Below are positions 18,017 to 42,392 of a stretch of 64,000 nt of DNA, one piece after another (position 1 is the stretch's first letter; each line of letters starts with the position of its first letter). The translations under genes and the position numbers were made by a program. The stretch covers positions 124,001 to 188,000 of the forward strand of contig NW_026515668.1 in assembly GCF_025526975.1 (NCBI RefSeq). Direction: 5' to 3'. The notes under the pieces were generated by a model. It had not been told where the DNA came from. It did not search any database and saw only the letters and a list, made by a program, of their open reading frames with translations. This DNA is from Fimicolochytrium jonesii (taxonomy: Eukaryota).

Positions 18017-18067
18017 GTGGATCAGTGCATAGCATAAACCATTGGTTTATGCTATGCACTGATCCAC
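18017..18067. repeat. Perfect palindrome, 25-bp arms around a single central T (18042)
   Basis: GTGGATCAGTGCATAGCATAAACCA-T-TGGTTTATGCTATGCACTGATCCAC. Confidence 0.98.
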
Positions 18068-18831
18068 TATACAATTGCACTGTGCATTAACCGTACTGAC
18101 TCCACTCAACACTGTGCATTAACCGTAACGGCTGCTGAAAGTGTAATGCATTAACCGTACTGGCGGGTGTATGGTGTAATGTATTAACAATGTACCCTAC
18201 ACCTTCGGTGTTATGCATTAACCGCACAAGCCTTTCAGCCATTAACCATCCTTGCGCATTTGGGAAAAGGGGGGCAAAGTCAAAATTCCCCCCTACATGC
18301 GTCGAGTCCAACCAACCTTTCTACTACTTCCCCATTCCCTGTTCCATGTAGGGGGGCAAAAAGGCAATTTTCGAACCAACTCTCACCACCAAAAAGAGAC
18401 ATCCTTTTCTCATTCTTCTTTTCAAAACTTTTCATATATCCTCTCATAGGTTTAGAAACTGCCAAAATGCCCCCCCTGTATCTTTTTCCCGTCTGCGGGG
18501 GCATTTTTGAAAAAGGGGGGCAAAACAAAAGGCCGCCTACATGCGTCTAGCCAAACTACCCTTCCTATCTATTCGCCCATACCATATTTCATGTAGGGGG
18601 GCAAAAAGGCAATTTTCGAACCCACCCTCTCCCACACAAATCACACTTCTTTTCTCATTATTGCTTCTCAAATACTTTTTATATATTCTCTCATAGGTTT
18701 TGAAACTGCCAAAATGCCCCCCTACATCTATTATCCCGTCCTCACTCTCTCTTTTCTTTCCACTTCTCTACATTCCTCTAGGGGGGCATTTTCACTTTGC
18801 CCCACTTCTCAAAATGCCCCCCGCTTATTCT
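18061..18831 (+). repeat. Left terminal inverted repeat (771 bp)
   Basis: Reverse complement of 41622-42392, with only a handful of substitutions and two compensating 1-nt indels seen by eye. Confidence 0.97.
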
Positions 18832-21515
18832 ATATACGTCTCTCCTTCTCTGGTCGCCTTTTTCAGTCCGAGGAACCATATGTTCCCTCTTATTTTTCGT
18901 TCCTTGATTTGAATGGTTGTTAGTTCTTTGAAGAATTGCTGCTTTCCGACGCGCCTCGATTGATCGAGAACCGTAACGGAATACTCCTTGTATAAATCAG
19001 ATCTCGTCACTCGGTCCTCATCACTTCCTGTGATATCGTAGTGGAACTTCAACCATTTCGCTGCTGCCAAACTGTTCGCTAGGTTCTTTTGGGTGAAGGC
19101 TCGTACCTCTGCAGGGACTTCAATGCTCATATTGAGGGTTTTATCTTCCTTCACAAAACGTTTGCGGAATATGCCAATGAGAAGCAAGATGAACTCGTCC
19201 CGACATGCATTCGTTTTGAAGTATCCTTTCAATTTCATATCACCTTCTTTTTGAAGTTGTTCCTCCTGAATTCCATCTCCCTCTTCCTCGATTGGTTCAG
19301 AGCCATTGAGAGTGAAACTGTATGGAAACTCTTGCATTCGCACCCGATTGCACAATGCGAGGTCTATTTTATCAAAGACCGGGTCTTCATTTGTCTGAAC
19401 ATTGGTTTGCCCAGTGATTGGAAAACTGATGGGTTTACCGTTAAGTGTTCTCACTGTTATCTTATCATTCCCTGACACTTTCTTGAACATTTCAGATAAA
19501 AATCGATCATTCTTATTTGTTTCGCTTGTCATCAGATACCTCTTTCCGAAGCAATTGTATAGTTGCGAGTTTGCTTTGTCAACATCTTGCTGCTCTCGGG
19601 TAAAGTTTTTCTTGTCCAAGGTATAGAAGTAATTTCCAAACGTAACAGCAAGGAGAGTACCTTCCACACCCTTTCCGTTCCGACCCGGCCCCTTGAGGAT
19701 TGTGAAGATTTCCTCAACTAGTTCTCCGTAGAGACACCTCGCAACATTGCAAAGTCGGTAAGTCATCAATTCTTCAGTTCGGAATATAGATTGGTAAAAG
19801 TTTTCAATCTTCTCACGCATCTCAGGGCTTCGTGTCGTCGGATAGTTGTAACCACATGTGAATAGTATGTAATCATCCCATTTGATGGGTCTTGCCTCTC
19901 CTTCAATCAGGTCGTACACTTTATCGTTAAAAGCAAATAGGTGAGGCTTTGAGAGAAAAAGTTCGATGCAGGTGTCGTTTGCGATACAGAGCCGTTCCAC
20001 GTTCTGTGCTACATTGATGGAGTACGTAGTCTCCTCGATCAGCATTCGAAACTTTTCGTAAATCAATCGCAGTTTCAAATACTTACCGTGCTCACTTTTT
20101 TGTGATTCAAAATCATCTAGTAGTTTCTCAAAACTGCTAATCAACGTGTCTGCAATCTGAAGATTCAAGTCGCTATTTCGGACCCCGCCCTCATACTTTC
20201 GCCAGATATTATCTTTGCCTAGAACAAACATCAAGCCGCTTGAATGTTTTAATAAAGTCTCACCTCGCTCTTCAATGAACCATTCAGCGGTATTCTTGTG
20301 GCTAATATTCAAAATTCGGCGGAAATCAAACTTCTCCCAACCTGTTAGACCTTCCAAATCTTCACAAGTTACAACAATATCCTTTTCTTCACTCGTTTTT
20401 GCGGGTTCAGTAATGGGCGGGAACAAGTCCAAGATCTTTTTGCTTTTATGAACATAGGTTTTTGAGCGTTCACAGTGCTGACATTTGAACGTGAATTTTT
20501 TTCGATCCACTATGAAGAATATTTTGGGAACGGAGACATCGTGTTCTGCGTGGTGCAACATGCAGTATGTGGTTCTCAAAAATACCACAATCGCATCCTC
20601 ATATTGTTGTACGGCCCCAAAATCTCTTTCCAAATATTCCGTTTTTCCACAGAGTTTGGTAACTGAATCGTAAATAGTGCTGATTACCTCCGTATTAGCA
20701 TCGTTGTAAATAGGATATTTTGCCTTTTTCTTCTTTGGTTGCGGTTGGTCTTCAAGGTCCGAGTCCGGAACCAGGACAAATTCATCATTGGCAGGACGCT
20801 TTCTACTATCAGATTGAATTGTCCATTCAACCGGGGTCCAGTCCGCCTCTACATATTGAATGATATACGAAGAGATTGGTGCATCCGGTTCGCTTTTGAT
20901 GAGAAGTCGGTTATCCCAACGATTTTTGACTTTGTCCACCATCACCATGGACCGATTGTTGTCATAGACAGAAAGATCAAAAAATCCATCCTTGAAATTG
21001 TAGTCTCGAACAACATCCGGGAAGTCGGACAAATCTGGGATGAATTTCTTGAGTTTCTTCTTCATTTCATTCCGGGTCGTATACATACCGTCTGCCCATA
21101 GGCGATAAGAGACTTTATATCCACCACCGGTTTCGACGTATTTACCATTTTTGTCCTTGGTGTGCTTAGGAGCGTATCCCATTGTACGGAACGCAGAATG
21201 AAAAGTAATATCCTCATTTAAATACAAGGAGGTAAATACTTTATCAACACCTTTACGGATTTCAGTCTCGACTTCTTCAGAGGGCAGATCGGATTCTTCC
21301 TCAAATCTCATATCGAAATCGACAAACAATTTGATCTTGTCATTGGCGCCCAATTTTGTAAAGTTTTCGGTAAGCCACTTGTGTTCCATATGTTTCTTTT
21401 CGTATTCTTCGAGTGTCCAATTGAACTCGGGAACACCTCCGAAGTAAGATTCCTTGAAATGATAGATGTCTCTGATAGGTTTGGATTCAACGTGAGCAGC
21501 AAATTTGGAAGACAT
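18825..21515 (-). CDS. AEP-type primase / Zn finger / D5-like SF3 helicase fusion (896 aa)
   Basis: N-terminal KLFVDFD, KVSYRL and FDLSVYD primase-like motifs. C..HHAEH...CQHC metal site. FAFNDKVYDL (D5_N), Walker A GPGRNGKG, LMTSE, KKVSGNDKITVR. Stop codon lies inside the TIR. Confidence 0.88.
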   Translation of the reverse strand: MSSKFAAHVESKPIRDIYHFKESYFGGVPEFNWTLEEYEKKHMEHKWLTENFTKLGANDKIKLFVDFDMRFEEESDLPSEEVETEIRKGVDKVFTSLYLNEDITFHSAFRTMGYAPKHTKDKNGKYVETGGGYKVSYRLWADGMYTTRNEMKKKLKKFIPDLSDFPDVVRDYNFKDGFFDLSVYDNNRSMVMVDKVKNRWDNRLLIKSEPDAPISSYIIQYVEADWTPVEWTIQSDSRKRPANDEFVLVPDSDLEDQPQPKKKKAKYPIYNDANTEVISTIYDSVTKLCGKTEYLERDFGAVQQYEDAIVVFLRTTYCMLHHAEHDVSVPKIFFIVDRKKFTFKCQHCERSKTYVHKSKKILDLFPPITEPAKTSEEKDIVVTCEDLEGLTGWEKFDFRRILNISHKNTAEWFIEERGETLLKHSSGLMFVLGKDNIWRKYEGGVRNSDLNLQIADTLISSFEKLLDDFESQKSEHGKYLKLRLIYEKFRMLIEETTYSINVAQNVERLCIANDTCIELFLSKPHLFAFNDKVYDLIEGEARPIKWDDYILFTCGYNYPTTRSPEMREKIENFYQSIFRTEELMTYRLCNVARCLYGELVEEIFTILKGPGRNGKGVEGTLLAVTFGNYFYTLDKKNFTREQQDVDKANSQLYNCFGKRYLMTSETNKNDRFLSEMFKKVSGNDKITVRTLNGKPISFPITGQTNVQTNEDPVFDKIDLALCNRVRMQEFPYSFTLNGSEPIEEEGDGIQEEQLQKEGDMKLKGYFKTNACRDEFILLLIGIFRKRFVKEDKTLNMSIEVPAEVRAFTQKNLANSLAAAKWLKFHYDITGSDEDRVTRSDLYKEYSVTVLDQSRRVGKQQFFKELTTIQIKERKIRGNIWFLGLKKATREGETYIE

Positions 21516-21620: not shown

Positions 21621-21902
21621 ATGTACATTCCTTACAACTATATTGCATCACTCTTTGAGGATGGAGAAATCAAGACTGTCACAGGCCGGAGCGTCCGTGA
21701 TCTTGCTAGAAAACTAGATATTGCCGCATCCACTGTTGCGCGAATTTTGGGTAATGTAGAATCATGCAGGACGCGGAGACACATCACCATCAAAAGGACA
21801 CTGAAAGAGCCTTTGAGTACGAAATCAGATGATCGGGATCAATCCGAATCGAATTCTATCTTGAAACCTTTAGGTTCCTTTGACTTGACCCAACAATCGT
21901 AG
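21621..21902 (+). CDS. Small putative helix-turn-helix DNA-binding protein
   Basis: SVRDLARKLDIAASTVARIL fits an HTH pattern. Divergent from the primase gene. Confidence 0.55.
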   Translation: MYIPYNYIASLFEDGEIKTVTGRSVRDLARKLDIAASTVARILGNVESCRTRRHITIKRTLKEPLSTKSDDRDQSESNSILKPLGSFDLTQQS

Positions 21903-22107: not shown

Positions 22108-24399
22108 CTACTCTTCAATGGCTTTTGATAGGATGTCAATATCGCTCAGTAGGAACTTATCACGTCCTCCATGTTTGTCCCCCTCCTCTTCCTTCAACCG
22201 GATCCCGTAAAACCCGGTTGTTTGGACCCCGTCGATTCGTCGGTTCGTACCAAAGGAGACGGCAGGGTACGCGTGAAGCAGGAAAGCCTTGAAATCCTGG
22301 GTCCGCGGTGAGCATTTGCGCCATACTGGATGCTGTTTTGTCCAATTTTGGAGGCACGCCATAGCCATGCATTGTCGCATTTTGGCGCCTTCTTCAATAG
22401 CGCACATTTCTTTTACAAAAGTTCGATACGGATGCACTCTTGTGACTAAATCTGCAGTCGCTGAAATCACTGACGCGGGCTTGCTCAGTAATGGATATTC
22501 TTCCGTTTGAAGATGATCGTGATGCAAAGAAACCATGAGTGCCATCATGGCACTCGCTAAGTCCCGGTCTTCGTTGTTGATGAGCCGGTCGAGTTCACCG
22601 TCCTTGTAATATACATGTTGACTCGGATCTTCATGTTCATGAGCGCTGACGAACTTCGATTTGCAAGGTATTACAACCAACTTGTCCGTAATATCTCTGT
22701 GATCGTTGTCGTAGAGTCCACAATCGAAATATGGAAGATGATTTGTAGCGAGAACAACCAATCCCGTTATCGTAAGTTCTTCATTCTTGCCATAAGCCCT
22801 CCTAACGTACGCAGAATCTCCTCCGACAGCCATTTTGACGGCCGAGCCGGAATACAAATCCTTCTCATCCCCTTCAGAAAACCAAGTGATAAGTGTTGAT
22901 TTTTGCCCCATTTTCCAGTGAATGTCAGACGGCTTATTTCCGTTCCCCGGTTTGCTTTGTAGGCTGCTGGCGGTCGCTCCCAGAAACCGATAACATGTCA
23001 TAAGTTTCATCAATCTTCCAACCAAACTTTTGCCATTGGAACTTGGACCGTAAAGTATAAGCAGTTCACGAAGACCGCGTCTGCTTCCCAGGATGGTACT
23101 GAGATTGGTGAGCCCGAAGAAACGATCGGAGGAATCAGGCCACATTTTGCAAAAGGCATCCCACAAGTACCGCTGTTTGGGATACTTCTCGGGATCCCAC
23201 TCAACAAGATCATAGTCAAACGCTTCAATATCGCCGTCTTCATCGGTGCGCTCCCGATATTCACCGACTTTTCGGTCGTAAACAAGGCCGTTTCTGAAAG
23301 CGATCAGATGGCTGTTGTCCACAGGAGGCTTGGCGTCCTCAGCCTCCCTCCATCGCAATCGTCCGAATATGATGTCGACAACCTTCTTGGCTCCTTTACC
23401 AATTTCATGCTTTGCGCCTTCGCTTTGATTCTTGTCGGTGGTATTAAAACAATCGAATAATACTTGACCAACGTACGCGGTGAAGGCTGTTTTGTCGAAG
23501 TGGGTGTTTGTGCGCGTCGCAGGATTCCATCGTACGAAGCCTTTGGTGTCGTTCAATCGAATGAGATGCCCATAAAACCGTTCGAAGAACTCGGCGGCAG
23601 GGGTTACCCATTGACCCTTTTTCTTTTTGTCCTCTGTTGATTTCGGGTTTATGTGTGCTATCAAAGCATGGCCAAATTCCCAAAACGAAACACGGATAGT
23701 GCACGGTTTGCATTGACACTGGAACATATCATGAGTCGATCCTGCCTTCTGCGAAGAAGCCAGATCTTCATGAGAAACAAGCGCGGTGCTGCCATCGATA
23801 GATTTGTGACGTTCCTGGGGGTCATCATTGTTGGCGGCGATTTGGTTGTTGTCAATCTGGATCTCTTCGTTTTCATTGACTTTCATCTGCAATCTAGGGA
23901 TATCGGGCGGGTTGACACTCGGAGTGCCCGGAAGGATTCGGTCAGGCACATCGTCCAGACGTACCTGGGGATGATCGTTATTGACATCGGTTTGGTTGTC
24001 AATCATGACGTTTTCATTTTGATTGACATCCATCTGCAAGCCAACGAGACCGGGCTTGTTGATCGTCGGAGTGTTTTGAGTCGAAGGAGAATCCAATGGC
24101 TCGATGCTCAAATTCATAGGATCGATATCGAAAATATTGTCCAAGTCCAACGCAACTGGGAAGTCGATATGGTCTTCATTGCAATTCACTTCGTTATTGA
24201 TCACATTTAAAGACCCCGGTTCAGCCCTTTGGACGGTACGTTTGGCTTTTTTGATGCGCTTCGGAGCCAATTCCATGGTGTTTTGGCGTTTTTGCATGTT
24301 GAGAACGTGCGTTGGTTGAAAGTTATGGCGAAAGCGGTTGTGTGCAATAGTTGTTAAGAGTGAGGAACTGTTTGAAATTTTTTGAAGGGAAACAAACAT
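22108..24399 (-). CDS. Second D5-like SF3 helicase without a recognisable primase domain
   Basis: IAFRNGLVYD (D5_N), Walker A GPSSNGKS, WFSE, KMAVGGDSAYVRRAY, LATNHLP. True start may be a downstream Met. Confidence 0.85.
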   Translation of the reverse strand: MFVSLQKISNSSSLLTTIAHNRFRHNFQPTHVLNMQKRQNTMELAPKRIKKAKRTVQRAEPGSLNVINNEVNCNEDHIDFPVALDLDNIFDIDPMNLSIEPLDSPSTQNTPTINKPGLVGLQMDVNQNENVMIDNQTDVNNDHPQVRLDDVPDRILPGTPSVNPPDIPRLQMKVNENEEIQIDNNQIAANNDDPQERHKSIDGSTALVSHEDLASSQKAGSTHDMFQCQCKPCTIRVSFWEFGHALIAHINPKSTEDKKKKGQWVTPAAEFFERFYGHLIRLNDTKGFVRWNPATRTNTHFDKTAFTAYVGQVLFDCFNTTDKNQSEGAKHEIGKGAKKVVDIIFGRLRWREAEDAKPPVDNSHLIAFRNGLVYDRKVGEYRERTDEDGDIEAFDYDLVEWDPEKYPKQRYLWDAFCKMWPDSSDRFFGLTNLSTILGSRRGLRELLILYGPSSNGKSLVGRLMKLMTCYRFLGATASSLQSKPGNGNKPSDIHWKMGQKSTLITWFSEGDEKDLYSGSAVKMAVGGDSAYVRRAYGKNEELTITGLVVLATNHLPYFDCGLYDNDHRDITDKLVVIPCKSKFVSAHEHEDPSQHVYYKDGELDRLINNEDRDLASAMMALMVSLHHDHLQTEEYPLLSKPASVISATADLVTRVHPYRTFVKEMCAIEEGAKMRQCMAMACLQNWTKQHPVWRKCSPRTQDFKAFLLHAYPAVSFGTNRRIDGVQTTGFYGIRLKEEEGDKHGGRDKFLLSDIDILSKAIEE

Positions 24400-26119: not shown

Positions 26120-26126
26120 AAACCTA

Positions 26127-27365
26127 TTATCCATTTTGCTCTTCATACTCGGCTATGGCCTCCCGTGCATTTTCGAGATTCCCTTCATCTTCCCAAGTTG
26201 ATTGGGACGCATCATAACCACTCCATAGAACCTTGTACTGCTTTATCCTTCTGTTGCCTCTACGTACTACTCTTGAATCAAGTATTGAATCAATTTCGTA
26301 TTCGTCGTTTTCATTTGGATCTGGCTGGGAAGCGATGTTTGGTACGGTGACAGTTCCATCAGGAACCAAGCGAAGATCGTTAGCAGATGTTAAACCGGGA
26401 AGTCTTGTTCCATCCATTCGGTTTAATCTATACGATGAAACATAACCTGCATAGTTACTTTGCACTTTCCCATCAATTCTATAAGTTTGTGACGAGAAAT
26501 ATCCCACCTTTGCGCGCCTTTTGATACCACTCGGTAACGGTATTATCTTTCTTACAACATCTCCCACTTTAAATTCGTTCAAAACTGTTGATTTCACTCC
26601 TTTCAATTTCTTGTTCCGTATGCGATCAAATATGGCTTCATGTTCATCTTGTAAGATTTCGTTTGAAGCCTTCCCTGTCGCATACGTTTTCGTGTTGTTT
26701 AAATTATCTATGAGTTTTTGAAGATAATTTGGCCAATCCCGTTTTCCGAATTGGATCGAGGAATAGATCAGATTTTTTATATTTTTGTTAACGGATTCTA
26801 TCTGTCCTTGTCCTTGCGGGACACCGGGTTGTCCGAACTTCCACTCCACGTTATTCGAGTCAGCCCACTCTTGCACCAGACCTTGAAATTCCGTACCTAC
26901 ATCGGATGTGAAACTTACTAATACAGCGCCATCCCGTTTCATTGTTTCTAGAAACTTGACAACAGTGGCTTGATCTTGTGTCTTCATTGCCATACTGTAC
27001 ACTTTTTTGGTGAGAATGTCTGAAGCGTTGACAGAATACTTATATCCATTGTATGCTACGGACAGCAAGTTTATACAATCGATCTGGTAGTTTCCTTCTT
27101 TTCTGGCCAAAATCGGTTTTATCGAGCCTCGGGATCCCATAACTTTTGTGCTCCTCTGCCAAATCTCTTGCTTCTTGAGAAAGTCGTTAAGAAGGGTTCT
27201 TTGCGAAATCCTACTATTTGGAAACGCTTTTCTATATGCATACCACAATTTGTCTCGTCCTAGAAAGTTTTGATTCTGATAATAAAACGTAGTGAGGTTC
27301 CGGAGATCCTCGGCAGTGATGGGGTCATATCGAAGAGAGGAGGTTCCTGTGTTGTCGGAGTCCAT
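26127..27365 (-). CDS. Retroviral-like (RVE) DDE integrase with C-terminal chromodomain (412 aa)
   Basis: YQID...SDVGTEF...QGQIESVNKNIK catalytic D-D-E. Chromodomain EYEIDSILDSR...YKVLWSGYDASQSTWEDEGNL. Confidence 0.93.
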   Translation of the reverse strand: MDSDNTGTSSLRYDPITAEDLRNLTTFYYQNQNFLGRDKLWYAYRKAFPNSRISQRTLLNDFLKKQEIWQRSTKVMGSRGSIKPILARKEGNYQIDCINLLSVAYNGYKYSVNASDILTKKVYSMAMKTQDQATVVKFLETMKRDGAVLVSFTSDVGTEFQGLVQEWADSNNVEWKFGQPGVPQGQGQIESVNKNIKNLIYSSIQFGKRDWPNYLQKLIDNLNNTKTYATGKASNEILQDEHEAIFDRIRNKKLKGVKSTVLNEFKVGDVVRKIIPLPSGIKRRAKVGYFSSQTYRIDGKVQSNYAGYVSSYRLNRMDGTRLPGLTSANDLRLVPDGTVTVPNIASQPDPNENDEYEIDSILDSRVVRRGNRRIKQYKVLWSGYDASQSTWEDEGNLENAREAIAEYEEQNG

Positions 27366-27642: not shown

Positions 27643-27864
27643 TCAAGCGGCCTTTTTTCTTCTTGGAGTTTGAACTGGAACCTGCTTGTCCAAATGCGAC
27701 TGAACGATATTCACAACTATTTCTTCCTTACATTGCTGTAAAGTTCTCGTCCTTACGTCCTCCGGCATGTCTAACCAAAGCCTATCCTGTGATAGGTCTT
27801 CCAGAAGTTTGTCAAAAGATTCTTTGGTCAGCGAATTTGGCAAATAGAAAATGTTATCAACCAT
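27643..27864 (-). CDS. Small hypothetical viral protein
   Basis: ORF between the integrase and ATPase on the same strand. MVDNIF start preceded by an AGTATA motif, basic C-terminus PRRKK. Confidence 0.45.
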   Translation of the reverse strand: MVDNIFYLPNSLTKESFDKLLEDLSQDRLWLDMPEDVRTRTLQQCKEEIVVNIVQSHLDKQVPVQTPRRKKAA

Positions 27865-27893: not shown

Positions 27894-28628
27894 TTAATGC
27901 GTTTCTGGTTGCAATTCTTTAAAGACTCCTTCGTTTGTCGGGCTTTTCAAATCGACGTAGAGCGCATGATAAGGTTTGACAGTATATTTCTCTGCTAAAT
28001 TTACAAACTCCGATTCTGACAAATGACAGCGAATCTCACCCGCAATCTTCTCGTACTGTTTCTGATTAAGTCGATACAAAATCCAATGGGTGGAATTCAC
28101 TCGTTGTAAAGGAGTGAGTTGTTTCGTGTCATGCAGGCTGCATAAAAGACTCCCCCCTGCGTGTCGAAAGCGGGAGTAAAGTAAGTCTAACATCTGTCGG
28201 ATGCCGCTCGATATCAGTTCAGGTTCTTTAGGCTCCTTTCCGATTGCGGGGCCATTTTCTTTTGCGAGAATTCCGAAATCATCGAGGATAAGAAGAAGGT
28301 GATTTTTGGATTTGTCTTGTTTATAAAGAAGTTTCTGCTTCTCGAAAAGGTTGTTCAGAATGTAATTCGATACTACGCTGGACATGTATACATTATCGCA
28401 TTTCTTCAAACTGGTCCATTCCGGCGAGTCAGCGCTTGGAGAGAAAACCACAACATTTTCATACGCTTTTGCACAATTCTGGATGAGATTGATAATACAA
28501 GTAGTTTTCCCTGCTCTTGAACTCCCGACTAGAGTCAAAGTGAAGAATTTCTTCGGATAGTCATCGGGCGTTTTGTCCTTTAGGTGTATCTGATATTCGG
28601 AAGGAATTTTCGGTTTAGCAATTCTCAT
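27894..28628 (-). CDS. A32-like (FtsK/HerA family) genome packaging ATPase
   Basis: Walker A GSSRAGKT, Walker B LLILDD, SRFRH motif and LTPLQRVN. Adjacent to capsid genes. Confidence 0.9.
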   Translation of the reverse strand: MRIAKPKIPSEYQIHLKDKTPDDYPKKFFTLTLVGSSRAGKTTCIINLIQNCAKAYENVVVFSPSADSPEWTSLKKCDNVYMSSVVSNYILNNLFEKQKLLYKQDKSKNHLLLILDDFGILAKENGPAIGKEPKEPELISSGIRQMLDLLYSRFRHAGGSLLCSLHDTKQLTPLQRVNSTHWILYRLNQKQYEKIAGEIRCHLSESEFVNLAEKYTVKPYHALYVDLKSPTNEGVFKELQPETH

Positions 28629-29474: not shown

Positions 29475-29945
29475 ATGTCAGAAAACGAAAGCGTATCTAC
29501 TGAAAACCCTTCTGTACAGGAAGAAAAACCAATTGTTGACGACCCGATCACCGAGGCTGTTATTGAAAAGGTGAAGGTCAAAAAACCGCGATCTGAAAAG
29601 CAGATCGAAGCAATGCGTCGAGCGCAAGAGAAACGTACCGAGAACTTGAAGAAGATGAAGGAAATCAAAGCGAAAGTAGATAAAGAGCAGGAAAAGGAGC
29701 AAGAGAAACGGGCAAAAGAATCTAAAAAAGACGAAGCAAGAAAGATAATTGAGAAATATGAAGCGGAAAAAAAGAAAATTGCTGAACAAAAGCGACAAGA
29801 GCGTATAGCGAAAATCAATCGAATGCCGAAAGCGCTTCAACCTGCTGCGTACAAAGACGACTCTGTTGAGCAAAACACGTTTGTAGAATTTGATCCTCCC
29901 GAAGCAGATGATGACCCGTATATGGGAATCTTTGGTGGGCGTTGA
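29475..29945 (+). CDS. Charged coiled-coil hypothetical viral protein
   Basis: K/E-rich ORF with KKPRSEKQIEAMRRAQEKR inside the structural cluster. Confidence 0.75.
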   Translation: MSENESVSTENPSVQEEKPIVDDPITEAVIEKVKVKKPRSEKQIEAMRRAQEKRTENLKKMKEIKAKVDKEQEKEQEKRAKESKKDEARKIIEKYEAEKKKIAEQKRQERIAKINRMPKALQPAAYKDDSVEQNTFVEFDPPEADDDPYMGIFGGR

Positions 29946-31477: not shown

Positions 31478-32941
31478 TTATACTTTTCGTGCCCGTTTTG
31501 AAGATTGTTCCCAGCCGTGTTCATAAGATAATCTCTCGGGAGGTAAACTCGTTCGTATACTTTTCTTTTTCCTTATTGGCGCGATGGGCGTATTTTCTGG
31601 AGCCCTCACTGCTGGGGAATCGGTGAAGATGTCTCTCTGTGTTGGTGTTGCAGAATCCTCATTTCGGGAAAGAACTTGAGTAATCGGTTCGGCGGTAACA
31701 AACTGTTCAATTGGTGTGGAGAGATCCAGAGGGGATCCTACCGTTCCAGTTGAAAGGGTAGATTTCGGACTCCTATTCGGGAAAATGTCGCTTTGAGTGA
31801 CTGCTGAACTGGCAGATGGATAACTTATTGTTGGTGAGAAATTCGTAATTATTGGTGGTGGGCGTGGTCTAGCAACCCGTGGCACATCTCCATGAGAATA
31901 TTGTGTCCCTACATCTTTGCTTTCTGTAATCTTTTCCTTTCTTAAAGTTTCTATCAATCTTTGCATCGCTCCCACCTCACTTAATGCGATAGGTGTGACG
32001 CTTTGCACTTGGCTGAGAAGTCGTTCCATCTCGTCCGGCGTCATTGTCGAAGGAACATTTTTAAAACCTACCGATTCTAACATTCTTTTGAACGTAGACA
32101 TTGTGGCTGTTGTCATCCTTCCAAGTTGCTCTTCTTGGGATCGGAGTTGTGTTTGCAAGGTTTGATTCGCGTGAGCCACTCCATCCATAAAATGTGTAAA
32201 TTTTCCTCCAGACGAGAATATAAGATCTAACGTATCGCTGTCTAGATCCGGTGTTGTACTCTGCGTTTCAACTGTTCTAAGATCTCGAACCCGATGGAGA
32301 GGAATATCTGTCTGTGTGCGGCTATTTGACATGCTTATCTTTTCAGCAGAACCGATTCGACCAATTTCGTCCGTCATTGTTTCACGATCGTTCATTTTTG
32401 TTACCACCTTGTTGTTACCAAGTATCGTATTGGTTTCGCTCATGTTTGCTTTTTCCGGAAGGTGATCATCACCGGTTCGTTGCACATTGGATGATGCATC
32501 TCCAATGAATTGATTCTGTTGAGCGCGAATGTAACTCGGCTGATGGTAAATTGTATCGCCTTTCGACGCTGTGGTTTTGGTCAAAGAGACCGTTCGACCT
32601 TGTCGAGGGAAAAGATTGTCTTTATCCAGTTCATCAAAGTATGCTTGTCTTGCACGTTCCTTATCGATAGCATGGAGCGCTTCCACAGCCTGTTTTCCAA
32701 TCTGAGACTGGTACTCTCCTTCACGGAGTTTGAGTGGTTGATCTACAGTCTTTTTTATAGAGAATGCATCCGATATTTTCCCTTTGCCTGGAACAAAGAA
32801 GGGAGTTTTGAATAAACGGTCAAAGGTCTCTTCCGGCTTTCCCTGTATGTAACCGAACTGATTTGAATGGATATTCAACACTGGAGGGGAGGGAAAAGTA
32901 TTGTTTGGCAATCGAGCAAACTTGTCGTCAAGAACCAACAT
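31478..32941 (-). CDS. Hypothetical viral protein (487 aa), S/T/P-rich C-terminus
   Basis: Long intronless ORF with no recognised domain. Confidence 0.75.
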   Translation of the reverse strand: MLVLDDKFARLPNNTFPSPPVLNIHSNQFGYIQGKPEETFDRLFKTPFFVPGKGKISDAFSIKKTVDQPLKLREGEYQSQIGKQAVEALHAIDKERARQAYFDELDKDNLFPRQGRTVSLTKTTASKGDTIYHQPSYIRAQQNQFIGDASSNVQRTGDDHLPEKANMSETNTILGNNKVVTKMNDRETMTDEIGRIGSAEKISMSNSRTQTDIPLHRVRDLRTVETQSTTPDLDSDTLDLIFSSGGKFTHFMDGVAHANQTLQTQLRSQEEQLGRMTTATMSTFKRMLESVGFKNVPSTMTPDEMERLLSQVQSVTPIALSEVGAMQRLIETLRKEKITESKDVGTQYSHGDVPRVARPRPPPIITNFSPTISYPSASSAVTQSDIFPNRSPKSTLSTGTVGSPLDLSTPIEQFVTAEPITQVLSRNEDSATPTQRDIFTDSPAVRAPENTPIAPIRKKKSIRTSLPPERLSYEHGWEQSSKRARKV

Positions 32942-32989: not shown

Positions 32990-33286
32990 ATGGGATTCTT
33001 TCAAAAAGCGAGAGGAAAAGCGCGCACATTTTTTAACGAACTGCCACAAAATATCGGAAAGGCGAGGAATTTTCTAGACAAAGCGGTTTCCGTTACTCGA
33101 AAGGGATATGCGATAGCAAGCCATGTAAACAAAGGGATTCAAGAGAATGATGTCTTCCACGATAAAATCAAAGAAACTGCGCGAAAAGGGCAACAGTTTG
33201 CAGATCTGGGAATAAAGAAGGTTGAAGATTTCCATAAAGGCGGTGATCAATTCTTAGAACATTTACAGCAAACTCCAATCGGATAA
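32990..33286 (+). CDS. Small amphipathic-helix viral protein (98 aa)
   Basis: MGFFQKARGKARTFFNELPQNIGKARNFLDKAV. Sits upstream of the fibre gene. Confidence 0.65.
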   Translation: MGFFQKARGKARTFFNELPQNIGKARNFLDKAVSVTRKGYAIASHVNKGIQENDVFHDKIKETARKGQQFADLGIKKVEDFHKGGDQFLEHLQQTPIG

Positions 33287-33306: not shown

Positions 33307-36300
33307 ATGAGCGGTCTAAATTCCCGAACCTCAAGCGGAATCAGAGTGCTTGAACGAACAAATCTCGTTTCTCCTTTAGTGACCAATAGTCTTCGTGCTA
33401 ATGGAGAGAACGTATCAATTGATAATTTCATTCAGCAGGCTTTCAAAAGGTATCAAATGAAAACGGACCGATCCTTGTGAATGACATCGTTGAGAGCGAA
33501 GATGCGATTATTCACAAAACCGAAGGAGTGGCTTCAATTGAAGTAGTCCATGACAATATGGAATTTCCACTTGCAAGAGACGACGGAAGCCGAACTGTTT
33601 CCCTTTTGACAAACCTGCCTCTTGGAGTAAGTCAGGACGGATTGACTTTGTTCCACGATCAGACTCTTTCAGTGAGCAATGAAGGTTTGACTGTAAATTT
33701 TCCCCCGCCTGATCTGGAAAATCTGCAAGAACCCTTGTCAAGAGACGATGAAGGACTTAAATTGAATTTTGATGAGGATTCATTGGAGGTGAATAATGGT
33801 AAATTGGAAGTTGTCAAAGAGCCTTTGACAGCCCCTTTGACGCGTAGCGTACAAGGACTCTGTCTTGATATTGACTCTACATTGACAGTTGAAAACGGTC
33901 AGTTGTCAGTTGTTCAAGAAAATGTTGAAGCGATTGTTGACGAGGCTGTTCGAGTAGAAGTTCCGCTTTCAAAAGATGCAGATAAGGCTATCCACCTCGA
34001 TTATGGGAAAGGGTTGAAAGTAAACGATGAAGGGAACTTGGAAACCGACGTTGATACAGTGATTGTTGGGAGAGGGGCTATTTCAAACGATAAAGCAGGA
34101 AGTCTGGCACTCGATGATCTCCTGCAAGAAGGTTTTGATTCCCTTGCGGACTTTTTAGGAGAAGATACGGATGTTGATACAACCGTTGTGCGTTTGAGGA
34201 CATCTGACGACTTTCAACAGACTGGGAACAAATTGGCGATCCGTTCGAAGGGTATGGGGCAAATACCATTCTATTCTGCATTATCGGGGTTAAATGGAGA
34301 CAGTAGTTTTATGTATAATGAAACACTCAATGAACTACATGTTCCGCATGTATACGTTAACAGCAACTTCAACCCTTCGAATAATGAAGTGGTGACATCC
34401 GGGAACGTAGAGCAATTGTACCAAGCAGGGTCAGGTATAGACATATCCGGAGTGTCCAATGGTCGGCGTACTATCGATGTTAGAACAGATGCAAGTTTAG
34501 CAATTGACTCTTCACAAAATCTTTCAGTAAATCCGTCGGCTATCGTTGACAATAAAGGTGTTCGCATCGTAAATGATAAAATTGCGATAGGACTAACTTT
34601 TCAACCTGGAAATGGCGGATTGAAATTAGAGAATTCGAATCAAGTGAAACTCGCTCCATCTGTCTCAGGTTCAATCACATTCGATGGTAACAACACGTTC
34701 GGTGAGAAACTCACAGCAAGTAACGGAGTTAAACGCATAGAAGATGATTTGCAGTTGGATTTACAGCCTGGTGATTCGACTGTTACGGTAGCAGGCAATT
34801 CGATTAAGGGCGCATATACAGGATCTAATGGAGTGTCAGTTACGGGAAACACTATTTCCGGGGCCTACACCGCCGGAAACAATATATCCATTTCAGGGTC
34901 GAGCATCAGTTGCACATATCAACCTGAGCCGGAAACACCAACGGTAATTACCGGCGCTTTACCTATCATTGTAACTGGAGCAGATAAGGAGTATAACATC
35001 GCGAAACAACCTTTGGTTTTAACAGGGGGCTCCGGAATCCTCGTTGTTGGCTCCGAGGAAACCGGTTTCAATATCTCCTCGATTCAGCCCTACAAAAACC
35101 GGAAAGAAGATGATGATCCAGAAGAGAAAAATGAGGATTCGGAGCCCAGTGGCGAATCTGATCCTTTAACAGCATCTGGATCTAATCCCGTAGTCTCCGT
35201 TACCGGACCCCTTTCAACAATCCTTGGAGGCGCGGTTGGTCTCATTGGCCCTGCGGCTGGCGCTCCATTTGCCACATCTGCTATCGGTGGCGTCGGGGGT
35301 CTTCTTGGAGGACCTGCTGCAGCAGCCGGAATCCTTGGTGGTTTCATCGCTGCAAGTGGTCGAGAGAGAAAGAACCAGAAAGACGCAAATGGTAACAATG
35401 TAGTGGATTCAAAGGGAAACCCTGTTCCAGATCCAAACGGCTCACAAGTTATCATTGCAACTTTCCCTAAAACGGATGATACATCCTGTGATGTTACAAG
35501 ATTACTTTTTGACACTCCACCTCCATGTTCATATCTTGGTATTGCAGGAGAGGTCCCACAGCAGGCAATCAACTTGCAGATGCTCCGCGAATACGATTCT
35601 ACAATCATACAGCCAACTTATTCAAATTTGATAAGTCAGAATACAAGTCTTCTTTTAACTGCTATCGATAGTAAAGTCGCAAAAACGGATACCATTCCGT
35701 ATGCGAGAATAACGGGTGCTCCAGATCTCACCATCTACGAGAAGAAATTAACATTTGCTGGACCTATAATTTCCAGAGATACATCTAATACCATTTCCGT
35801 TAATACCGGAAATATCACTACCCTTGGGACACTCACATCTCTTAACGTAACAGGCGCTTTGACCGCCGGCTCCATAAGCAGTCCCACTCTGAACAATTAT
35901 CTATTATCAAGTGTTGCTTCAACAACGTATCAACCTCTAAATGCTCGTCTTACTAATTTGGGGAACATTGCGCCAACAAACACGTACATGCTTATCGCAA
36001 GCGGAGGCAATTTCATTCAATTTAGTCCTGCAGATGTTCGTGCAAATCTCTCATTAAAAAATCTGAGTTTGCTCGATACTTTAGACTACACTAGTTCGGC
36101 GTTGGTGAACAAACCTACGCTTGGTTTGCTTGCAGCACTTAGCAGTATTGACTATGCTTCGACGTACATTACTGGAAAGCCAACTCTTAATTCTCTTGCA
36201 GCACTGAGTAATATAGATTACACTTCGGCTTTACTTACAAACAAGCCTTCGCTTGGTTCACTTGCAGCACTGAGTAGTATAGATTACACTTCGGCTTTAC

Positions 36301-39300
36301 TGACAAACAAGCCTTCGCTTGGCAGTTTGGCTGCTAAATCCGTTATCAATCTTGCAAGCGCAGATGTCACCGGTATTCTTCCTGTTGGAAGTATTGACCC
36401 GAACATTGTGCTTGCTGGAACCGGTTTGACTAAAAATTCTCAAACTCCAAGTGTCAATTCTGTACAGACACAAATCACATCGGTCGGAACCCTTACTTCC
36501 CTCTCAGTTAGTGGTGCATCTACATTTACTGGAGCGGTAACGATTCCTGCTCCCACCGTCGCATCAAACCCAGCAACAAAATCATATGTGGATGGATTGA
36601 TTTCTACAACATCCGGAAATGCTCAACCTCTTAATCCTAAATTGACTGTTATTTCCTCATCTACCCCAACTGTTAATAATTTTCTCGTAGGAGATGGAAG
36701 TAATTTTGTCTCAACGACTCCATCAGCATCTAGAACAGCACTAGGGCTCGGTTCCGTGGCGTTAAAGAACACCATCACGCTCACAACAGATGTGACAGGT
36801 ATCTTGCCTCTTGCCAATATAGACGCCCAAGTAAGCACGAAAGCCTACGTCGATGCTCAGACATCAACAGTTTGGCGCAGGATTGTCAAAGTCAGGCACA
36901 GCCATTTCAGTCAACACGGATCAGTCGGCTGTTATCACCAAAGTTGGAACTCTGCAGGGGTTGAGTGTTACAGGCGACGTGACCATATCAGGGAACGCCA
37001 TCATCTCGACAGCCCCAACAGCAGATACACATCTCACAAATAAGACTTATGTTGATACGCTTCTAAGTGCAGGAACCGGTTTAACACGTACAGGAAACAA
37101 TTTCTCTGTCAATGTGGCTCAACCTCAGATAACATCAATTGGGACGTTATCATCATTGAGCGTCGGTGGGAATGCGAGTTTTGCTGGAGATGTCACGGTG
37201 TCAGGAAACGCTGTCGTCTCAACAGCACCGACCTTAGCAAATCATCTTACGAATAAGACTTATGTTGATACGCTTCTTAGTGCTGGAACAGGTTTGACAC
37301 GCACTGGAAACGCCTTTAGCGTAAATCCTGCTCAGCCTCAAATTACAAGCGTTGGAACTCTATCATCTCTGAATGTTGGTGGAAGTCTTCAAATTGCAGG
37401 GACGACTGATACTAGTTCAATCACAACTGGCGCTTTACAGGTCGCCGGAGGGGTTGGTATCTCGAAATCATTATACGTCGGTGGATATGGAATCATAAAA
37501 GAATCTACAGCCGGAAATGGACCTTCTGTAGGTCTTATAAACTCAAACGGTGGAGGTTGGACTTTGTGGCATATAGGTCAAACTAGTGGCCTTGGAACTA
37601 ATAATTTCGGCTTATACAACAATACTGCCGCAAATCTTGCGTTATCGGTGAATGTGACAACGAATGCACTAACTATCAATTCGGTATCCGACTCCAACGC
37701 TACAAATGCTGGCGCTTTACAGGTCGCCGGAGGTGTTGGTATCGCCAAGAAATTGACGGTAGGAAGTGATGCGAGTTTTGTCGGGTCAAATCAAAGTATC
37801 TTTTGGTACAACGGTTCGGTATCAACACCCACATTTGGAAGCAGCATAACGGGCAACGTTTCAGCAGCAGGGTATTTTTCCTCAAATTCGGCTATTGGCG
37901 ATATGGTAATTCGGGCACAGTACAATAATTCACCGACAAACTTACGATTCGCTAATGGACCCGGCGTATCAAATCTTGATATATTGACAAATGGAAATGT
38001 TCTAATCAATACAACAACCGACTCCTCTTCTACAACAACTGGCGCTCTAACAGTTGCTGGAGGTCTAGGTGTGGGAAAATCTCTATTTGCTGGTTCAGCC
38101 GCCACGGGAAGTCATACAATGCAAGTAAATTCAACTTCCTTTGACGTTTTGAAACTTCAAAGTCTTTCGGCATCTGGGTTTTCTTCTATCGGTTTTGTTA
38201 ACAACACAGGAACAACGGTGGGAGCATTCGGGTTCGCAGGAGTCAATACGACCGCTCCAAATGCTGGAAACTTCTTCCTATACTCCGGGTCTAATGCCAA
38301 TTTCATAATCAACTCTAACCTCCCCAGTGTACAAATTCTTTCCACCATAGATTCTACTTCGACAACATCAGGTGCATTTCTGGTGAGAGGTGGAGCGGGT
38401 ATTGCAGGAAATGTCAATCTTGGTAAAGATTTGACTGTTAATGGCACAATCTACTCCAATATTGCCTCAACCGGACCTATTGTTAGCAGCCATCTTGGGA
38501 CACCGAACTTGGCAGCGGGGAGTTTCTCAACACTTCCAATTGGAGTAGGAGCGGCTACAAATAACATGGCCAGATTGTACTTTAACTATGCTGGAGCAGG
38601 TCTTGCAACTAATACGTTGGGTTTGGGATTATGGAATGCACCTCAAGGGCTTACAGTGGATGGAACGGGAAAGGTTGTTATTCCTAATGGTTCCATCGGC
38701 AATTTAACAGTGTCAGGAAACATGAATTTCACCGGGAATCTTGCAACAATCAGTGCAACTGGTTCACAAGGTCCTCTCTCCATAGATCCGAACCAAAGTT
38801 CCAACCCTTATGTACGGGTATGGGACGATTTACGGGTGGTAGGCGATTTTTCCGTGTGGAATTCGGCCGAAAATACCACTTGGTTCAAAGTCTTTACAAA
38901 TAATGGTGTTGCATCTGTCTTTACCACAACCGATTCCACAGGCGTTGGATCAGGCGCTCTTCAAGTGTCTGGAGGCGCATCTGTAGCGAAATCTTTATAT
39001 GTTGGGGGAAATCTGAACAACAGTGGTACTGTATCGATCTTGACCACTACTGATGCCACTTCTAACGCATCAGGCGCTCTTCAAGTGAGTGGAGGCGCAT
39101 CTGTAGCGAAATCTTTATATGTTGGGTCAAATCTCAATGTGACCGGTGATTTGAACAGTCCTGCCTTAACATCGAAAACTACTTTGTTCCCTTACCCCAC
39201 AACGCCAGCAACAGGTTCCTCATGGAACGGCTATACAGTTACAGCCTCCAGCGAATACACGTATGCAAATGGAAACGGTGTAGATGGATACACTGGTCAT

Positions 39301-40233
39301 CCATTCGATGCGTACATGAACGCCTCCATTGCATCCAGACTGCGATGGCAAACCAGTTCCACAAGTACAGCCAATTTAGGTTTAGATGGAACAACACAAA
39401 GTCTTCATTACTCTTTATTGAGACTCCCGTCGGCCATTGCTATGAGTTCAATCAAACTCACCGCCTACCTGATGGACGCCGTGGCGATGCCTACTACGTT
39501 CTCCGTGATTGCCGGAACTACCGAGTCCGCTATGGTAACCATTGCAACGTTTTCGAATATACCTGGTTCTACTTGGACCACTGATGGTAATTCATTTAGT
39601 TTTGCCAACGCCACTGCTTACCCTGTTTATGGTATCTCATGGGCATACGCAAATCAAACCACAACCGGAGGGGTCGCTATCCGAAATATTCAATACAATC
39701 AAGCCGTTCCCAAAGCGACCCTTGTCACTGCTTCTGCAAACACTATAGATGTTTCCGGTGCGTTAACTACGGGCACATTCGCAGCAAGTGGTTCAGCAAC
39801 TGTGAATTCCTTGACATGCAATACGAACGTATATGCTTCACAAATCATTCAATCTGCTGTTTGTATCAAAGACGGTGTTGTAGATACGTTGTTGACCAAT
39901 GGAAACGGTTATACAGGCGGGTTTGGTCCGATAATGTGGAAAGCAGGTATGTCTGGCGTCGTTGCTCATGTTAGTTTTATGGGATATATGAATTCGAATA
40001 ACACTCGGGTAACAATAACTGTTCAAATATTGGATCAATCCTCTACCGTAGTCGCCTCTAGAGCAGTCTCGTACTACTGTGATATAAGCAATTATCAGAC
40101 TCGCTACCCATTCAGTTTTCAAGTGCCGTTGCTGTTTTCTTCGACGAATACGCAGTTAAGCGCAAGGATTGTCATACCAACATCTATAACATTATCTAAT
40201 TCATATCTCAACTTTTGGACGCAATGCTACTAA
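33307..40233 (+). pseudogene. Giant fibre/spike gene (~2,300 codons if joined), apparently broken by two frameshifts (~33440 and ~36871)
   Basis: Short ORF 33307-33480, ORF 33477-37043 and ORF 36853-40233 overlap in different frames. Fibre-shaft-like repeats (LTVENGQLSV, GKGLKVNDEGNL), TKxYVD repeats and GALQVAGGVGI repeats. The repeat pattern continues across the 36871 break. Confidence 0.8.
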
Positions 40234-40826: not shown

Positions 40827-40886
40827 GCGGGGGCATTTTGAGAAGTGGGGCAAAGTGAAAATGCCCCCCTAGAGGAACGTAGAGAA
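40827..40886 (+). repeat. Internal ~60-bp copy of the inner end of the TIR
   Basis: gcgggggcattttgagaagtggggcaaagtgaaaatgcccccctagag matches 41629-41689 in direct orientation. Confidence 0.92.
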
Positions 40887-41086
40887 TTAGGAGGATGAAT
40901 AGTATTTAGATACCTACTTGACCATTTATAGATTTGTTTCGAGTTCAATGACCGCTGATCATGTCATATAACCTCATTTCTTGACAGTTAATATCGAATG
41001 TAAGTTGTTATCGGATTTGGTTTCGGTCCCACGCCAAGATTTAAATAGAAGCGACAAGGTGCAGATTGGAGACGTGAGCATTAAAC

Positions 41087-41473
41087 ATGTCTTTCTTCAA
41101 TAAATCGCTTGTCAAAAGGTTAACGGGAGTTTCGCACCGCGAAAAGATGTCCGACGATGATTTCATAACTCGCTGTGGATTTATCACTGGTACGATAATG
41201 GGTTCAGGTTGGGAATGCAAAGAATACTTACGGGACTTTTGCAGATTCAATTCCATCATGAAACCTGCCTGGAAAAAACTGTATGACCGTTGGATTGAAA
41301 ACGAGAAAAAGGAATGGGCTTGCTTCGACGAGCCTGGAAAATTGGAGTTTGTCAAGAATGACGCTGTCACAGAGAGTCTCTCTATGCCCAACGAGTGGGC
41401 TTTTGGCACTGGCAAAATTGAAGAGAATAGTTCAGAAACCACTACCGATGCTATACCTGATAAAGCAGACTAA
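41087..41473 (+). CDS. Hypothetical viral protein (128 aa)
   Basis: Intronless ORF between the internal TIR fragment and the right TIR. Confidence 0.55.
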   Translation: MSFFNKSLVKRLTGVSHREKMSDDDFITRCGFITGTIMGSGWECKEYLRDFCRFNSIMKPAWKKLYDRWIENEKKEWACFDEPGKLEFVKNDAVTESLSMPNEWAFGTGKIEENSSETTTDAIPDKAD

Positions 41474-41621
41474 AGTTCTGAAGGAAAGCAAAGATTTGAA
41501 TGTAACGTAATTTTAAACAATGAACGAAAGAATGTTCGTATTGGTGGATGTCACAGTAGAGTATGAGTTTGTCATTTACTGTAACGGGGTCGACTAATGA
41601 AGTAGGGAAATCTATTTTCTC

Positions 41622-42392
41622 AGAATAAGCGGGGGGCATTTTGAGAAGTGGGGCAAAGTGAAAATGCCCCCCTAGAGAAATGTAGAGAAGTGGAAAGAAA
41701 AGAGAGAGTGAGGACGGGATAATAGATGTAGGGGGGCATTTTGGCAGTTTCAAAACCTATGAGAGAATATATAAAAAGTATTTGAGAAGCAATAATGAGA
41801 AAAGAAGTGTGATTTGTGTGGGAGAGGGTGGGTTCGAAAATTGCCTTTTTGCCCCCCTACATGAAATATGGTATGGGCGAATAGATAGGAAGGGTAGTTT
41901 GGCTAGACGCATGTAGGGGGGCATTTTGTTTTGCCCCCCTTTTTCAAAAATGCCCCCGCAGACGGGAAAAAGATACAGGGGGGGCATTTTGGCAGTTTCT
42001 AAACCTATGAGAGGATATATGAAAAGTTTTGAAAAGAAGAATGAGAAAAGGATGTCTCTTTTTGGTGGTGAGAGTTGGTTCGAAAATTGCCTTTTTGCCC
42101 CCCTACATGGAACAGGGAATGGGGAAGTAGTAGAAAGGTTGGTTGGACTCGACGCATGTAGGGGGGAATTTTACTTTGCCCCCCTTTTCCCAAATGCGCA
42201 AGGATGGTTAATGGCTGAAAGGCTTGTGCGGTTAATGCATAACACCGAAGGTGTAGGGTACATTGTTAATACATTACACCATACACCCGCCAGTATGGTT
42301 AATGCATTACACTTTCAGCAGCCGTTACGGTTAATGCACAGTGTTGAGTGGAGTCAGTACAGTTAATGCACAGTGCAATTGTATAGTGGATC
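41622..42392 (-). repeat. Right terminal inverted repeat (771 bp)
   Basis: Reverse complement of 18061-18831. Ends ...GTATAGTGGATC. Confidence 0.97.

What the first reader, a model, noticed from the sequence alone, without database searches (positions are those of the whole stretch)
18024..42392. Full-length endogenous Polinton-like virus in a fungal genome, lacking pPolB and protease
Seen: a 24.4-kb AT-rich intronless block with 771-bp TIRs and a clustered ATPase, penton-like, MCP-like and fibre module plus two D5 helicases and two integrases. Known: this morphogenetic module defines Polintons, PLVs and virophages; Polintons also carry a protein-primed PolB and a cysteine protease, and I recognise neither here. 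Inference: a PLV-type virus, possibly of an undescribed fungal lineage. Near-identical TIRs suggest fairly recent insertion.
Basis: partly seen in the sequence, partly recalled or inferred. Interest (0 to 1): 0.92.

Follow-up and report, generated by a model that had tools for sequence, protein, structure and literature searches.

The report
Integrated Polinton-like virus in chytrid fungus
A full-length 24-kb DNA virus with capsid, packaging and fibre genes sits inside a jumping gene of what is likely a chytrid fungus; it belongs to an already catalogued but little-studied group, and its lopsided ends suggest it likely entered the chromosome as a circle by a precise cut-and-join step.

Summary
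Observation largely confirmed: 24.4-kb, 43%-GC block in 55%-GC DNA, 771-bp TIRs (765/772 columns match), A32 ATPase, rve-chromo integrase, two D5 helicases, fibre, no pPolB or protease. The MCP model is a double jelly-roll (pLDDT 92.7; Z 29 to PBCV-1 capsid). The penton fold was not tested; the second integrase (tyrosine recombinase) rests on motifs only and is frameshifted, as is the fibre.

The lineage is not undescribed. The penton is 44% identical to Powellomyces chytrid fungus MELD virus 5 (2021), and all organism-named MCP relatives are chytrids. Lacking pPolB and protease is normal for PLVs.

The extra finding is the ends. The element sits in a Ty3/gypsy gag gene between two copies of a 7-mer. 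A perfect 51-bp palindrome lies at the left end only, and its extra part equals what the right end lacks. This fits crossover of a circular form at a 7-bp core (about 55%); rve insertion plus later loss of the right palindrome is the rival (about 30%). Palindromic ends and two-integrase pairs are in print for protist elements, and this scan noted both on another chytrid genome (unchecked). New member of a known kind.

The parts
18017..18023 (+). 7-bp direct repeat GTGGATC, left copy (predicted crossover core; apparent TSD)
18017..18067 (.). perfect 51-bp palindrome (25-bp arms, one central base), left end only
   Evidence: z -14.6; next-best palindrome in window has 9-bp arms
18061..18831 (+). 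left TIR, 771 bp, with six GCATTAAC-type repeats at about 32-bp spacing and two 245-bp internal units
18825..21515 (-). 896-aa primase-helicase: D5/SF3 helicase (shown), N-terminal AEP-like motifs and C/H zinc-like motif (by eye)
   Evidence: (PPL4 E 0.1 only)
21621..21902 (+). 93-aa protein with weak helix-turn-helix matches
   Evidence: E 0.009-0.05, below cut-offs
22108..24399 (-). 763-aa second D5/SF3 helicase, no primase match; 26% identical to the first over 197 aa
24967..26119 (+). candidate tyrosine recombinase, split by a frameshift near 25200 (ORFs 24967-25296 and 25187-26119)
   Evidence: motifs only; no profile or homologue hit; frames
26127..27365 (-). 412-aa retroviral-type integrase with C-terminal chromodomain, intact ORF, D-D-E motifs present
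   Evidence: (rve 1.6e-7, Chromo 3e-14)
27643..27864 (-). 73-aa ORF, unknown
27894..28628 (-). 244-aa A32-like packaging ATPase
28684..29433 (+). 249-aa penton candidate, 44% to the penton of Powellomyces MELD virus 5; fold not tested
29475..29945 (+). 156-aa charged protein, conserved between penton and MCP in relatives
   Evidence: Geranomyces 56%; MELD virus 5, 31%
30001..31224 (+). 407-aa double jelly-roll major capsid protein
31478..32941 (-). 487-aa ORF, unknown
32990..33286 (+). 98-aa ORF, unknown
33400..40233 (+). long fibre-like gene in pieces (frameshifts near 33425 and 36870); 39% to a Powellomyces hirtus protein over 639 aa
40230..40562 (-). 110-aa ORF, unknown
40829..40886 (+). 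58-bp third copy of the inner TIR end (97-98%)
41087..41473 (+). 128-aa ORF between that copy and the right TIR, unknown
41622..42392 (-). right TIR, ending in the second GTGGATC (42386-42392), without the outer palindrome
12930..18016 (-). host Ty3/gypsy element: downstream part of gag, protease, RT, RNase H, broken and truncated integrase
42393..42602 (-). host Ty3/gypsy element: start of gag (ATG 42509), primer-binding-like motif and LTR-end-like motif (42602-42589)
   Evidence: motif labels recalled

Best explanation
This is a full-length Polinton-like virus lying in a Ty3/gypsy gag gene of what is likely a chytrid fungus, and it likely got there as a circle that a predicted tyrosine recombinase crossed over with the host at a shared 7-bp core. 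Shown: double jelly-roll capsid model, A32 ATPase, fibre, two SF3 helicases, rve integrase, TIRs, 7-bp direct repeat, one-sided palindrome. Inferred: the free genome is copied without a protein primer, by its own primase-helicase and/or host polymerase, from the repeat-bearing TIRs. The two TIRs meet in a palindromic junction (an opened hairpin end or a head-to-head join). The core lies 19-25 bp off the junction centre, so crossover leaves the whole centre on the left end and none on the right. ATPase, MCP, penton and fibre would build an icosahedral particle. Whether it needs a giant helper virus, and whether this copy can still excise (the recombinase-like and fibre genes are frameshifted in this sequence), is untested. 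Odds: PLV identity alone about 0.95; with the crossover mechanism about 0.55.
For: Capsid: AF2 on 123 sequences, pLDDT 92.7, pTM 0.89; Foldseek top hit PBCV-1 capsid E 8.6e-18, TM 0.66; VIA-align Z 29.1, rmsd 3.3 over 350 residues, with the first 16 rows all viral capsid-type proteins and the first non-viral row at Z 8.6. Lineage: 8 of 13 close MCP hits carry names, all chytrids; a 17-row clade with SH support 100 holds the query and 11 named chytrid rows; gene order penton-156aa-MCP-fibre is shared with Geranomyces and Powellomyces proteins. Junction: counting the 7-mer once gives a continuous 395-aa gag frame; every in-frame reading with a duplication of 4 bp or more needs all 7 host bases to match the virus, chance 7e-5 per site. 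The 18 bp plus centre that are extra on the left are what the right lacks. Precedents: a 7-bp 'TSD' on an oomycete PLV with tyrosine recombinase and helicase (PMC7805220 Table S4 row); attL/attR crossover by tyrosine recombinase in phaeoviruses (PMC13236599 passages).
Against: The recombinase is not confirmed by any profile or homologue and is frameshifted, while the rve integrase is intact. The gag frame also stays open under readings with a 3-bp or shorter duplication (393 aa, 4 or fewer coincident bases), so frame continuity alone does not prove that the host held the 7-mer. In Halocafeteria, palindromes lie within the TIRs next to TSDs and go with particular RVE integrases. I saw no clear inverted binding arms around the core, by eye. 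One locus only; no empty site, second copy or reads were seen. Host taxon is inferred from viral relatives; host genes show only a fungal-type PDR transporter and Ty3 element.
Confidence: 0.55

Rival explanations
1. Same virus, but inserted by the rve integrase as a linear DNA with opened-hairpin palindromes at both ends (Halocafeteria type); the outer part of the right palindrome and perhaps the TSD were lost later, which leaves an apparent 7-bp repeat.
For: rve-chromo ORF is intact with D-D-E motifs; palindromic ends next to TSDs go with non-pPolB replicases and RVE integrases in the Halocafeteria preprint; a 3-bp TSD reading keeps gag in frame; EMALE TSDs are mostly 3-5 bp; long palindromes are deletion-prone (general knowledge).
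Against: Needs a second event whose breakpoint happens to leave 7 bp and an open gag frame, or 4 chance base matches plus unequal ends; the rest of both TIRs is 99% alike with no larger loss.
Confidence: 0.3
2. A circular or hairpin-ended viral DNA was captured by host break repair using 7 bp of microhomology, with neither viral enzyme involved.
For: Microhomology joining explains a shared 7-mer without a working recombinase; the recombinase is unconfirmed and broken here.
Against: Both junctions use the same 7-mer with no loss on either partner under the 7-bp reading, which repair rarely gives (general knowledge).
Confidence: 0.1
3. Misassembly, fold-back read or contaminating viral contig joined to host DNA.
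For: No reads or second copy could be examined; small indels in TIRs and genes look like long-read errors.
Against: Both flanks are halves of one gag gene that join in frame; relatives sit on megabase contigs of chytrid assemblies.
Confidence: 0.05

Closest known systems
Powellomyces chytrid fungus MELD virus 5 (Starrett et al. 2021, PMC8502044; proteins DAC81684.1, DAC81683.1)
   Same: Penton 44%, next ORF 31%; the likely matching P. hirtus gene model gives MCP 30% and fibre 39%; adenovirus-like fibre; the paper reports non-PolB replicases among the six Powellomyces viruses.
   Different: A distinct virus on a sister branch of the MCP tree. I could not see its genome map, so its replicase, integrases and ends were not compared.
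Spizellomyces punctatus-group PLV (Bellas and Sommaruga 2021, PMC7805220)
   Same: Endogenous PLV with TIRs in a chytrid genome.
   Different: That element has 154-bp TIRs and pPolB, and its group's MCP matches SPPG_00925. The S. punctatus relatives of this MCP are SPPG_02195, 08453 and 07203, about 29%.
Halocafeteria seosinensis endogenous virophages and PLV subtype 4 (bioRxiv 10.64898/2026.07.28.741278)
   Same: About 52-nt terminal palindromes, non-pPolB replicases, sometimes two replication genes, RVE plus Yrec.
   Different: There the palindromes flank the TIRs next to TSDs, and RVE plus Yrec occurs in virophages but not PLVs; here the palindrome is one-sided and a PLV-type capsid carries both.
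Mid-GC EMALEs of Cafeteria burkhardae (PMC8547959)
   Same: No pPolB, long primase-helicase, rve plus tyrosine recombinase.
   Different: Virophage capsid module with protease; TSDs mostly 3-5 bp; no sequence-specific integration reported.
Oomycete PLV PHYSODRAFT_306846 and phaeovirus EVEs
   Same: Tyrosine recombinase with a 7-bp flanking repeat; attL/attR crossover and hairpin-like ends.
   Different: Gossevirus-type MCP and giant-virus genomes respectively; phaeoviruses use a 2-5-nt core and a separate telRL site and resolvase.

Membership tests
Polinton-like viruses (working definition, Bellas 2026) | double jelly-roll major capsid protein | tested here: met
Polinton-like viruses (working definition, Bellas 2026) | A32-like packaging ATPase | tested here: met
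   Pox_A32 32.2 bits, cut-off 22.8
Polinton-like viruses (working definition, Bellas 2026) | single jelly-roll minor capsid (penton) | tested here: inconclusive
   44% to a deposited 'penton'; no PDB or Pfam profile hit; not folded
Polinton-like viruses (working definition, Bellas 2026) | 15-45-kb genome with TIRs or circular map, replicase and integrase genes | tested here: met
   24.4 kb, TIRs, D5 helicases, rve
Aquintoviricetes (ICTV class) | placement by MCP/ATPase with Gezel-14T and TsV references | not testable with these tools
   no reference PLV sequences obtained; one search places chytrid ATPases there, not this one
Maverick-Polintons (Polintoviricetes, group 1) | protein-primed PolB | tested here: not met
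   0 of 125 frames hit; no room
Maverick-Polintons (Polintoviricetes, group 1) | adenovirus-type cysteine protease | tested here: not met
   0 of 125 frames hit; a very divergent protease among the unknown ORFs cannot be fully excluded
Maverick-Polintons (Polintoviricetes, group 1) | retroviral-type integrase | tested here: met
Maverick-Polintons (Polintoviricetes, group 1) | symmetrical ends with a 5-6-bp TSD | tested here: not met
   ends unequal; 5-6-bp readings need a 7-base coincidence
Virophages (Virophaviricetes) | virophage-type MCP | tested here: inconclusive
   Sputnik Z 20.6 and mavirus Z 18.8 rank below PBCV-1 Z 29.1; 0 of 123 relatives hit a virophage Pfam, 6 hit Capsid_N weakly
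Virophages (Virophaviricetes) | maturation protease | tested here: not met
Mriyaviruses / NCLDV-like small viruses | HUH endonuclease, VLTF2/3, Mriya48 | tested here: inconclusive
   no Pfam hit, but no dedicated profiles were available
S. punctatus-group PLV (PC_0050) | MCP of the SPPG_00925 type | tested here: inconclusive
   not among names seen, but names were looked up for only 27 of the MCP hits
Tyrosine recombinases | catalytic R-K-HxxR-H-Y set and fold | tested here: inconclusive
   R138, K173, NELR (R244), H269, Y279/280 in order by eye, numbered in frame 25187-26116 (consensus recalled); no profile hit; no match to N15 protelomerase; not folded

The most novel reading that the evidence does not exclude
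A chytrid-wide clade of polymerase-less PLVs replicates through hairpin ends or a circle with a 1.6-kb palindrome, and integrates by tyrosine-recombinase crossover at a 7-bp core next to the hairpin tip, preferring Ty3/gypsy gag genes as safe sites. This locus would then be a readable attL/attR pair that preserves the hairpin tip, and would show which of the two integrases is used on the host genome.
Probability: 0.35. Interest if true: 0.72.

Novelty: new member of a known kind. Interest (0 to 1): 0.5.

Why it matters
DNA viruses of fungi are poorly known, and the chytrid PLVs in print are metagenome-style assemblies or single marker genes with no described ends in the texts I read. This copy has both host junctions. 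How PLVs without a protein-primed polymerase copy their ends, and why some carry two integrases, are open questions named. The junction gives exact, testable predictions: the empty-site sequence, the circle junction and the recombinase substrate. Giant viruses of zoosporic fungi have now been described (listing and passages), so a helper-parasite relation in a culturable fungus could be tested. The existence of the virus itself would not surprise a specialist.

Tried and rejected
Single-sequence fold of the MCP failed (pLDDT 29). No whole genome is held, so no genome-wide TIR search was possible. No sequencing run was listed; that is no evidence either way. Viral-contig scans gave no usable locus: MCP alignment, palindrome arm, ATPase, primase-helicase, penton alignment, recombinase; one search found 1 relative of P0029 but returned 0 loci. 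Metagenome scans: MCP none; the TIR-end 18-mer gave one hit, L001, a chance match with no further similarity. PDB sequence searches for MCP profile, recombinase, penton and ATPase gave nothing meaningful. Phage tblastn: none for penton, recombinase and ATPase; primase hits for the helicase only. Protelomerase idea: no similarity to N15 gp29, so not supported, though a pairwise test is weak. The protein atlas did not complete, so recombinase and penton folds stay open. No tRNA or Rfam family lies in the element. No LTR pair was found for the host retroelement. The maximum-likelihood tree did not finish; FastTree was used. Rejected: Maverick-Polinton and virophage filing (defining genes missing); a recent duplication as origin of the two helicases (26% identity); a plain 5-6-bp TSD. 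Literature searches and the passages read showed no report of a one-sided palindrome with a shared core in a PLV; bioRxiv supplements and all figures were not visible and may bear on this.


Full report
Observation. The block 18024-42385 has 43.0% GC against 55.7% and 55.0% in the flanks. Its TIRs (18061-18831, 41622-42392) align over 772 columns with 765 matches, 5 mismatches and 2 gaps. Fifteen ORF blocks cover 89% of the DNA between them, and the largest gap is 567 bp. Pfam gives Pox_A32 for 27894-28628, rve plus Chromo for 26127-27365 and Av_adeno_fibre for the long ORF from 33558. PHROGs and NCBIfam give D5/P4-type primase-helicase matches for 18825-21515 and 22108-24399; the two are only 26% identical over 197 aa. 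Of 125 stop-to-stop frames of 62 aa or more, none matched a pPolB or protease family at E 0.001; the five that matched anything were the integrase, ATPase, fibre and first helicase frames, four in all.

Capsid. A homologue search found 13 relatives at 42-86% identity; 8 of 13 are named, all from Geranomyces, Gaertneriomyces, Phlyctochytrium arcticum or Powellomyces. A profile search found 164 proteins at E up to 0.001. An alignment of 123 sequences gave an AF2 model with pLDDT 92.7. Its best matches are the PBCV-1 and iridovirus capsids (Foldseek E 8.6e-18) and, by VIA-align, PBCV-1 Z 29.1, faustovirus 26.9, ASFV 24.8, Sputnik 20.6 and mavirus 18.8, with non-viral folds from Z 8.6 down. The double jelly-roll is therefore well supported as a prediction. 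The penton was not folded. It has 7 relatives, one deposited as the penton of Powellomyces chytrid fungus MELD virus 5 at 44%; its profile hit nothing in PDB or Pfam.

Lineage. I looked up names for 27 MCP hits; 11 carried an organism name and all 11 are chytrid genera, adding Spizellomyces, Thoreauomyces, Rhizophlyctis and Borealophlyctis. A FastTree of 131 rows (hits shorter than 270 or longer than 520 aa left out, two fused proteins trimmed, no outside references, midpoint root) puts the query in a 17-row clade with SH support 100 that holds 11 named chytrid rows; 2 named rows lie outside it. That these genera are mostly Spizellomycetales is recalled. The P. hirtus gene model g06199 clusters with the MELD virus 5 penton; its neighbour by number, g06200, matches the MCP (30%) and fibre (39%) here, so I infer that MELD virus 5 is a sister element with similar order. 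Starrett et al. describe six Powellomyces MELD genomes with adenovirus-like fibres and varied non-PolB replicases (section 3.4 read; passages; supplement cut and without hits; figures not seen). Bellas and Sommaruga 2026 report chytrid ATPases in two places among Aquintoviruses, treat MELDs as PLVs, and note that only Gosseviruses among major PLV groups have a protease (parts 1-3 of 5 and passages; supplements not seen). The S. punctatus PLV of Bellas 2021 has pPolB, 154-bp TIRs and apparently another MCP (passages and supplement rows). So this is a new member of a deposited but uncharacterised chytrid PLV lineage. The host is likely a chytrid; host genes themselves show only a PDR-type ABC transporter, other eukaryotic genes and a Ty3/gypsy element.

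Ends. The element interrupts the gag gene of a decayed Ty3/gypsy element on the minus strand. GTGGATC stands at 18017-18023 and at 42386-42392. On the left it opens a perfect 51-bp palindrome centred on 18042 whose inner end is the start of the TIR; the right TIR stops at the 7-mer. The next-best palindrome in the window has 9-bp arms, and none of 200 shuffles folded as well. If the right end is joined in thought to the left through one copy of the 7-mer, the two TIRs meet in a complete palindrome, so the integrated form is a circular permutation of a TIR-to-TIR junction. Counting the 7-mer once in the host gives a 395-aa gag frame from the ATG at 42509. All in-frame boundary choices with a duplication of 4 bp or more require the 7 host bases to equal the viral ones, a 7e-5 chance per site. 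This is what a tyrosine-recombinase crossover gives (general knowledge; phaeovirus example in passages of PMC13236599; oomycete PLV with a 7-bp repeat). Against it: readings with a 3-bp or shorter duplication also keep the frame, the candidate recombinase has no profile or homologue support and is frameshifted, and the Halocafeteria preprint ties terminal palindromes to RVE integrases and TSDs (section read). I put crossover at 0.55, rve insertion with later loss at 0.3, repair capture at 0.1 and artefact at 0.05.

How it would work. Shown: the genes and ends above. Inferred: the 896-aa protein, next to the left TIR as in the end modules of Barth et al. (passages and part of section 9), has AEP-like and zinc-like motifs by eye (Pfam PPL4 only E 0.1) and would prime and unwind from the TIR repeats spaced about 32 bp apart. 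A hairpin or circular junction removes the need for a protein primer, which fits the lack of pPolB. ATPase, MCP, penton and fibre would package the DNA. Two integrases recall mid-GC EMALEs (passages). Dependence on a giant virus is untested. Three frameshifts, in the recombinase-like gene and the fibre, are either decay or sequencing error; no reads were listed.

Earlier notes of this scan. Two unchecked notes from another genome describe a chytrid PLV with integrase plus recombinase and one in a retrotransposon with a 44-base palindrome at its left end. I could not see that DNA and do not count them as support; if independent and one-sided, the second would favour crossover.

Verdict. The virus is real and of the PLV kind; the lineage is already deposited; the junction is the part worth following. 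Interest 0.5, new member of a known kind.

Noticed in passing
window 40829-40886 and 41087-41473: A 58-bp third copy of the inner TIR end lies 803 bp inside the right TIR and brackets a 128-aa ORF of unknown function; similar to the direct repeat described around the Gezel-14T end module.
   Followed up: partly
window 24400-24966 and 40563-41086: Two non-coding gaps share GC-rich short inverted repeats (E 4e-4 in a small local comparison); the first lies upstream of the second helicase, which has higher GC (47%) than most viral genes and may be a later addition.
   Followed up: partly
window 18084-18246: Six GCATTAAC-type repeats at spacings 32, 32, 33, 34 and 24 bp near the TIR end, origin-like; none found in host DNA of the window.
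   Followed up: partly
window 12930-18016 and 42393-42602: The host Ty3/gypsy copy is decayed: stop codon after the integrase zinc finger, frameshift in the core, 3' truncation, no LTR pair found.
   Followed up: partly
window 16666-16756: Six-base TGACAT/TGACAC microsatellite within the retroelement, downstream of the gag stop.
   Followed up: no
window 7388-7537: CTAACC telomere-like repeats inside the contig.
   Followed up: no
window 3487-3671 and 9536-9629: A tRNA-Thr gene at 3487-3558 and a 74-bp sequence repeated about 5950 bp apart (84%).
   Followed up: no
P0004, P0024, P0160, P0170: Public chytrid gene models fuse penton, the 156-aa ORF, MCP, fibre or an AP2-like gene into single 'hypothetical proteins', so these viruses are mis-annotated as host genes.
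   Followed up: partly
window 42669-43522: Fragments with a DUF3471 match (beta-lactamase-associated C-terminal domain, recalled) right of the retroelement.
   Followed up: no
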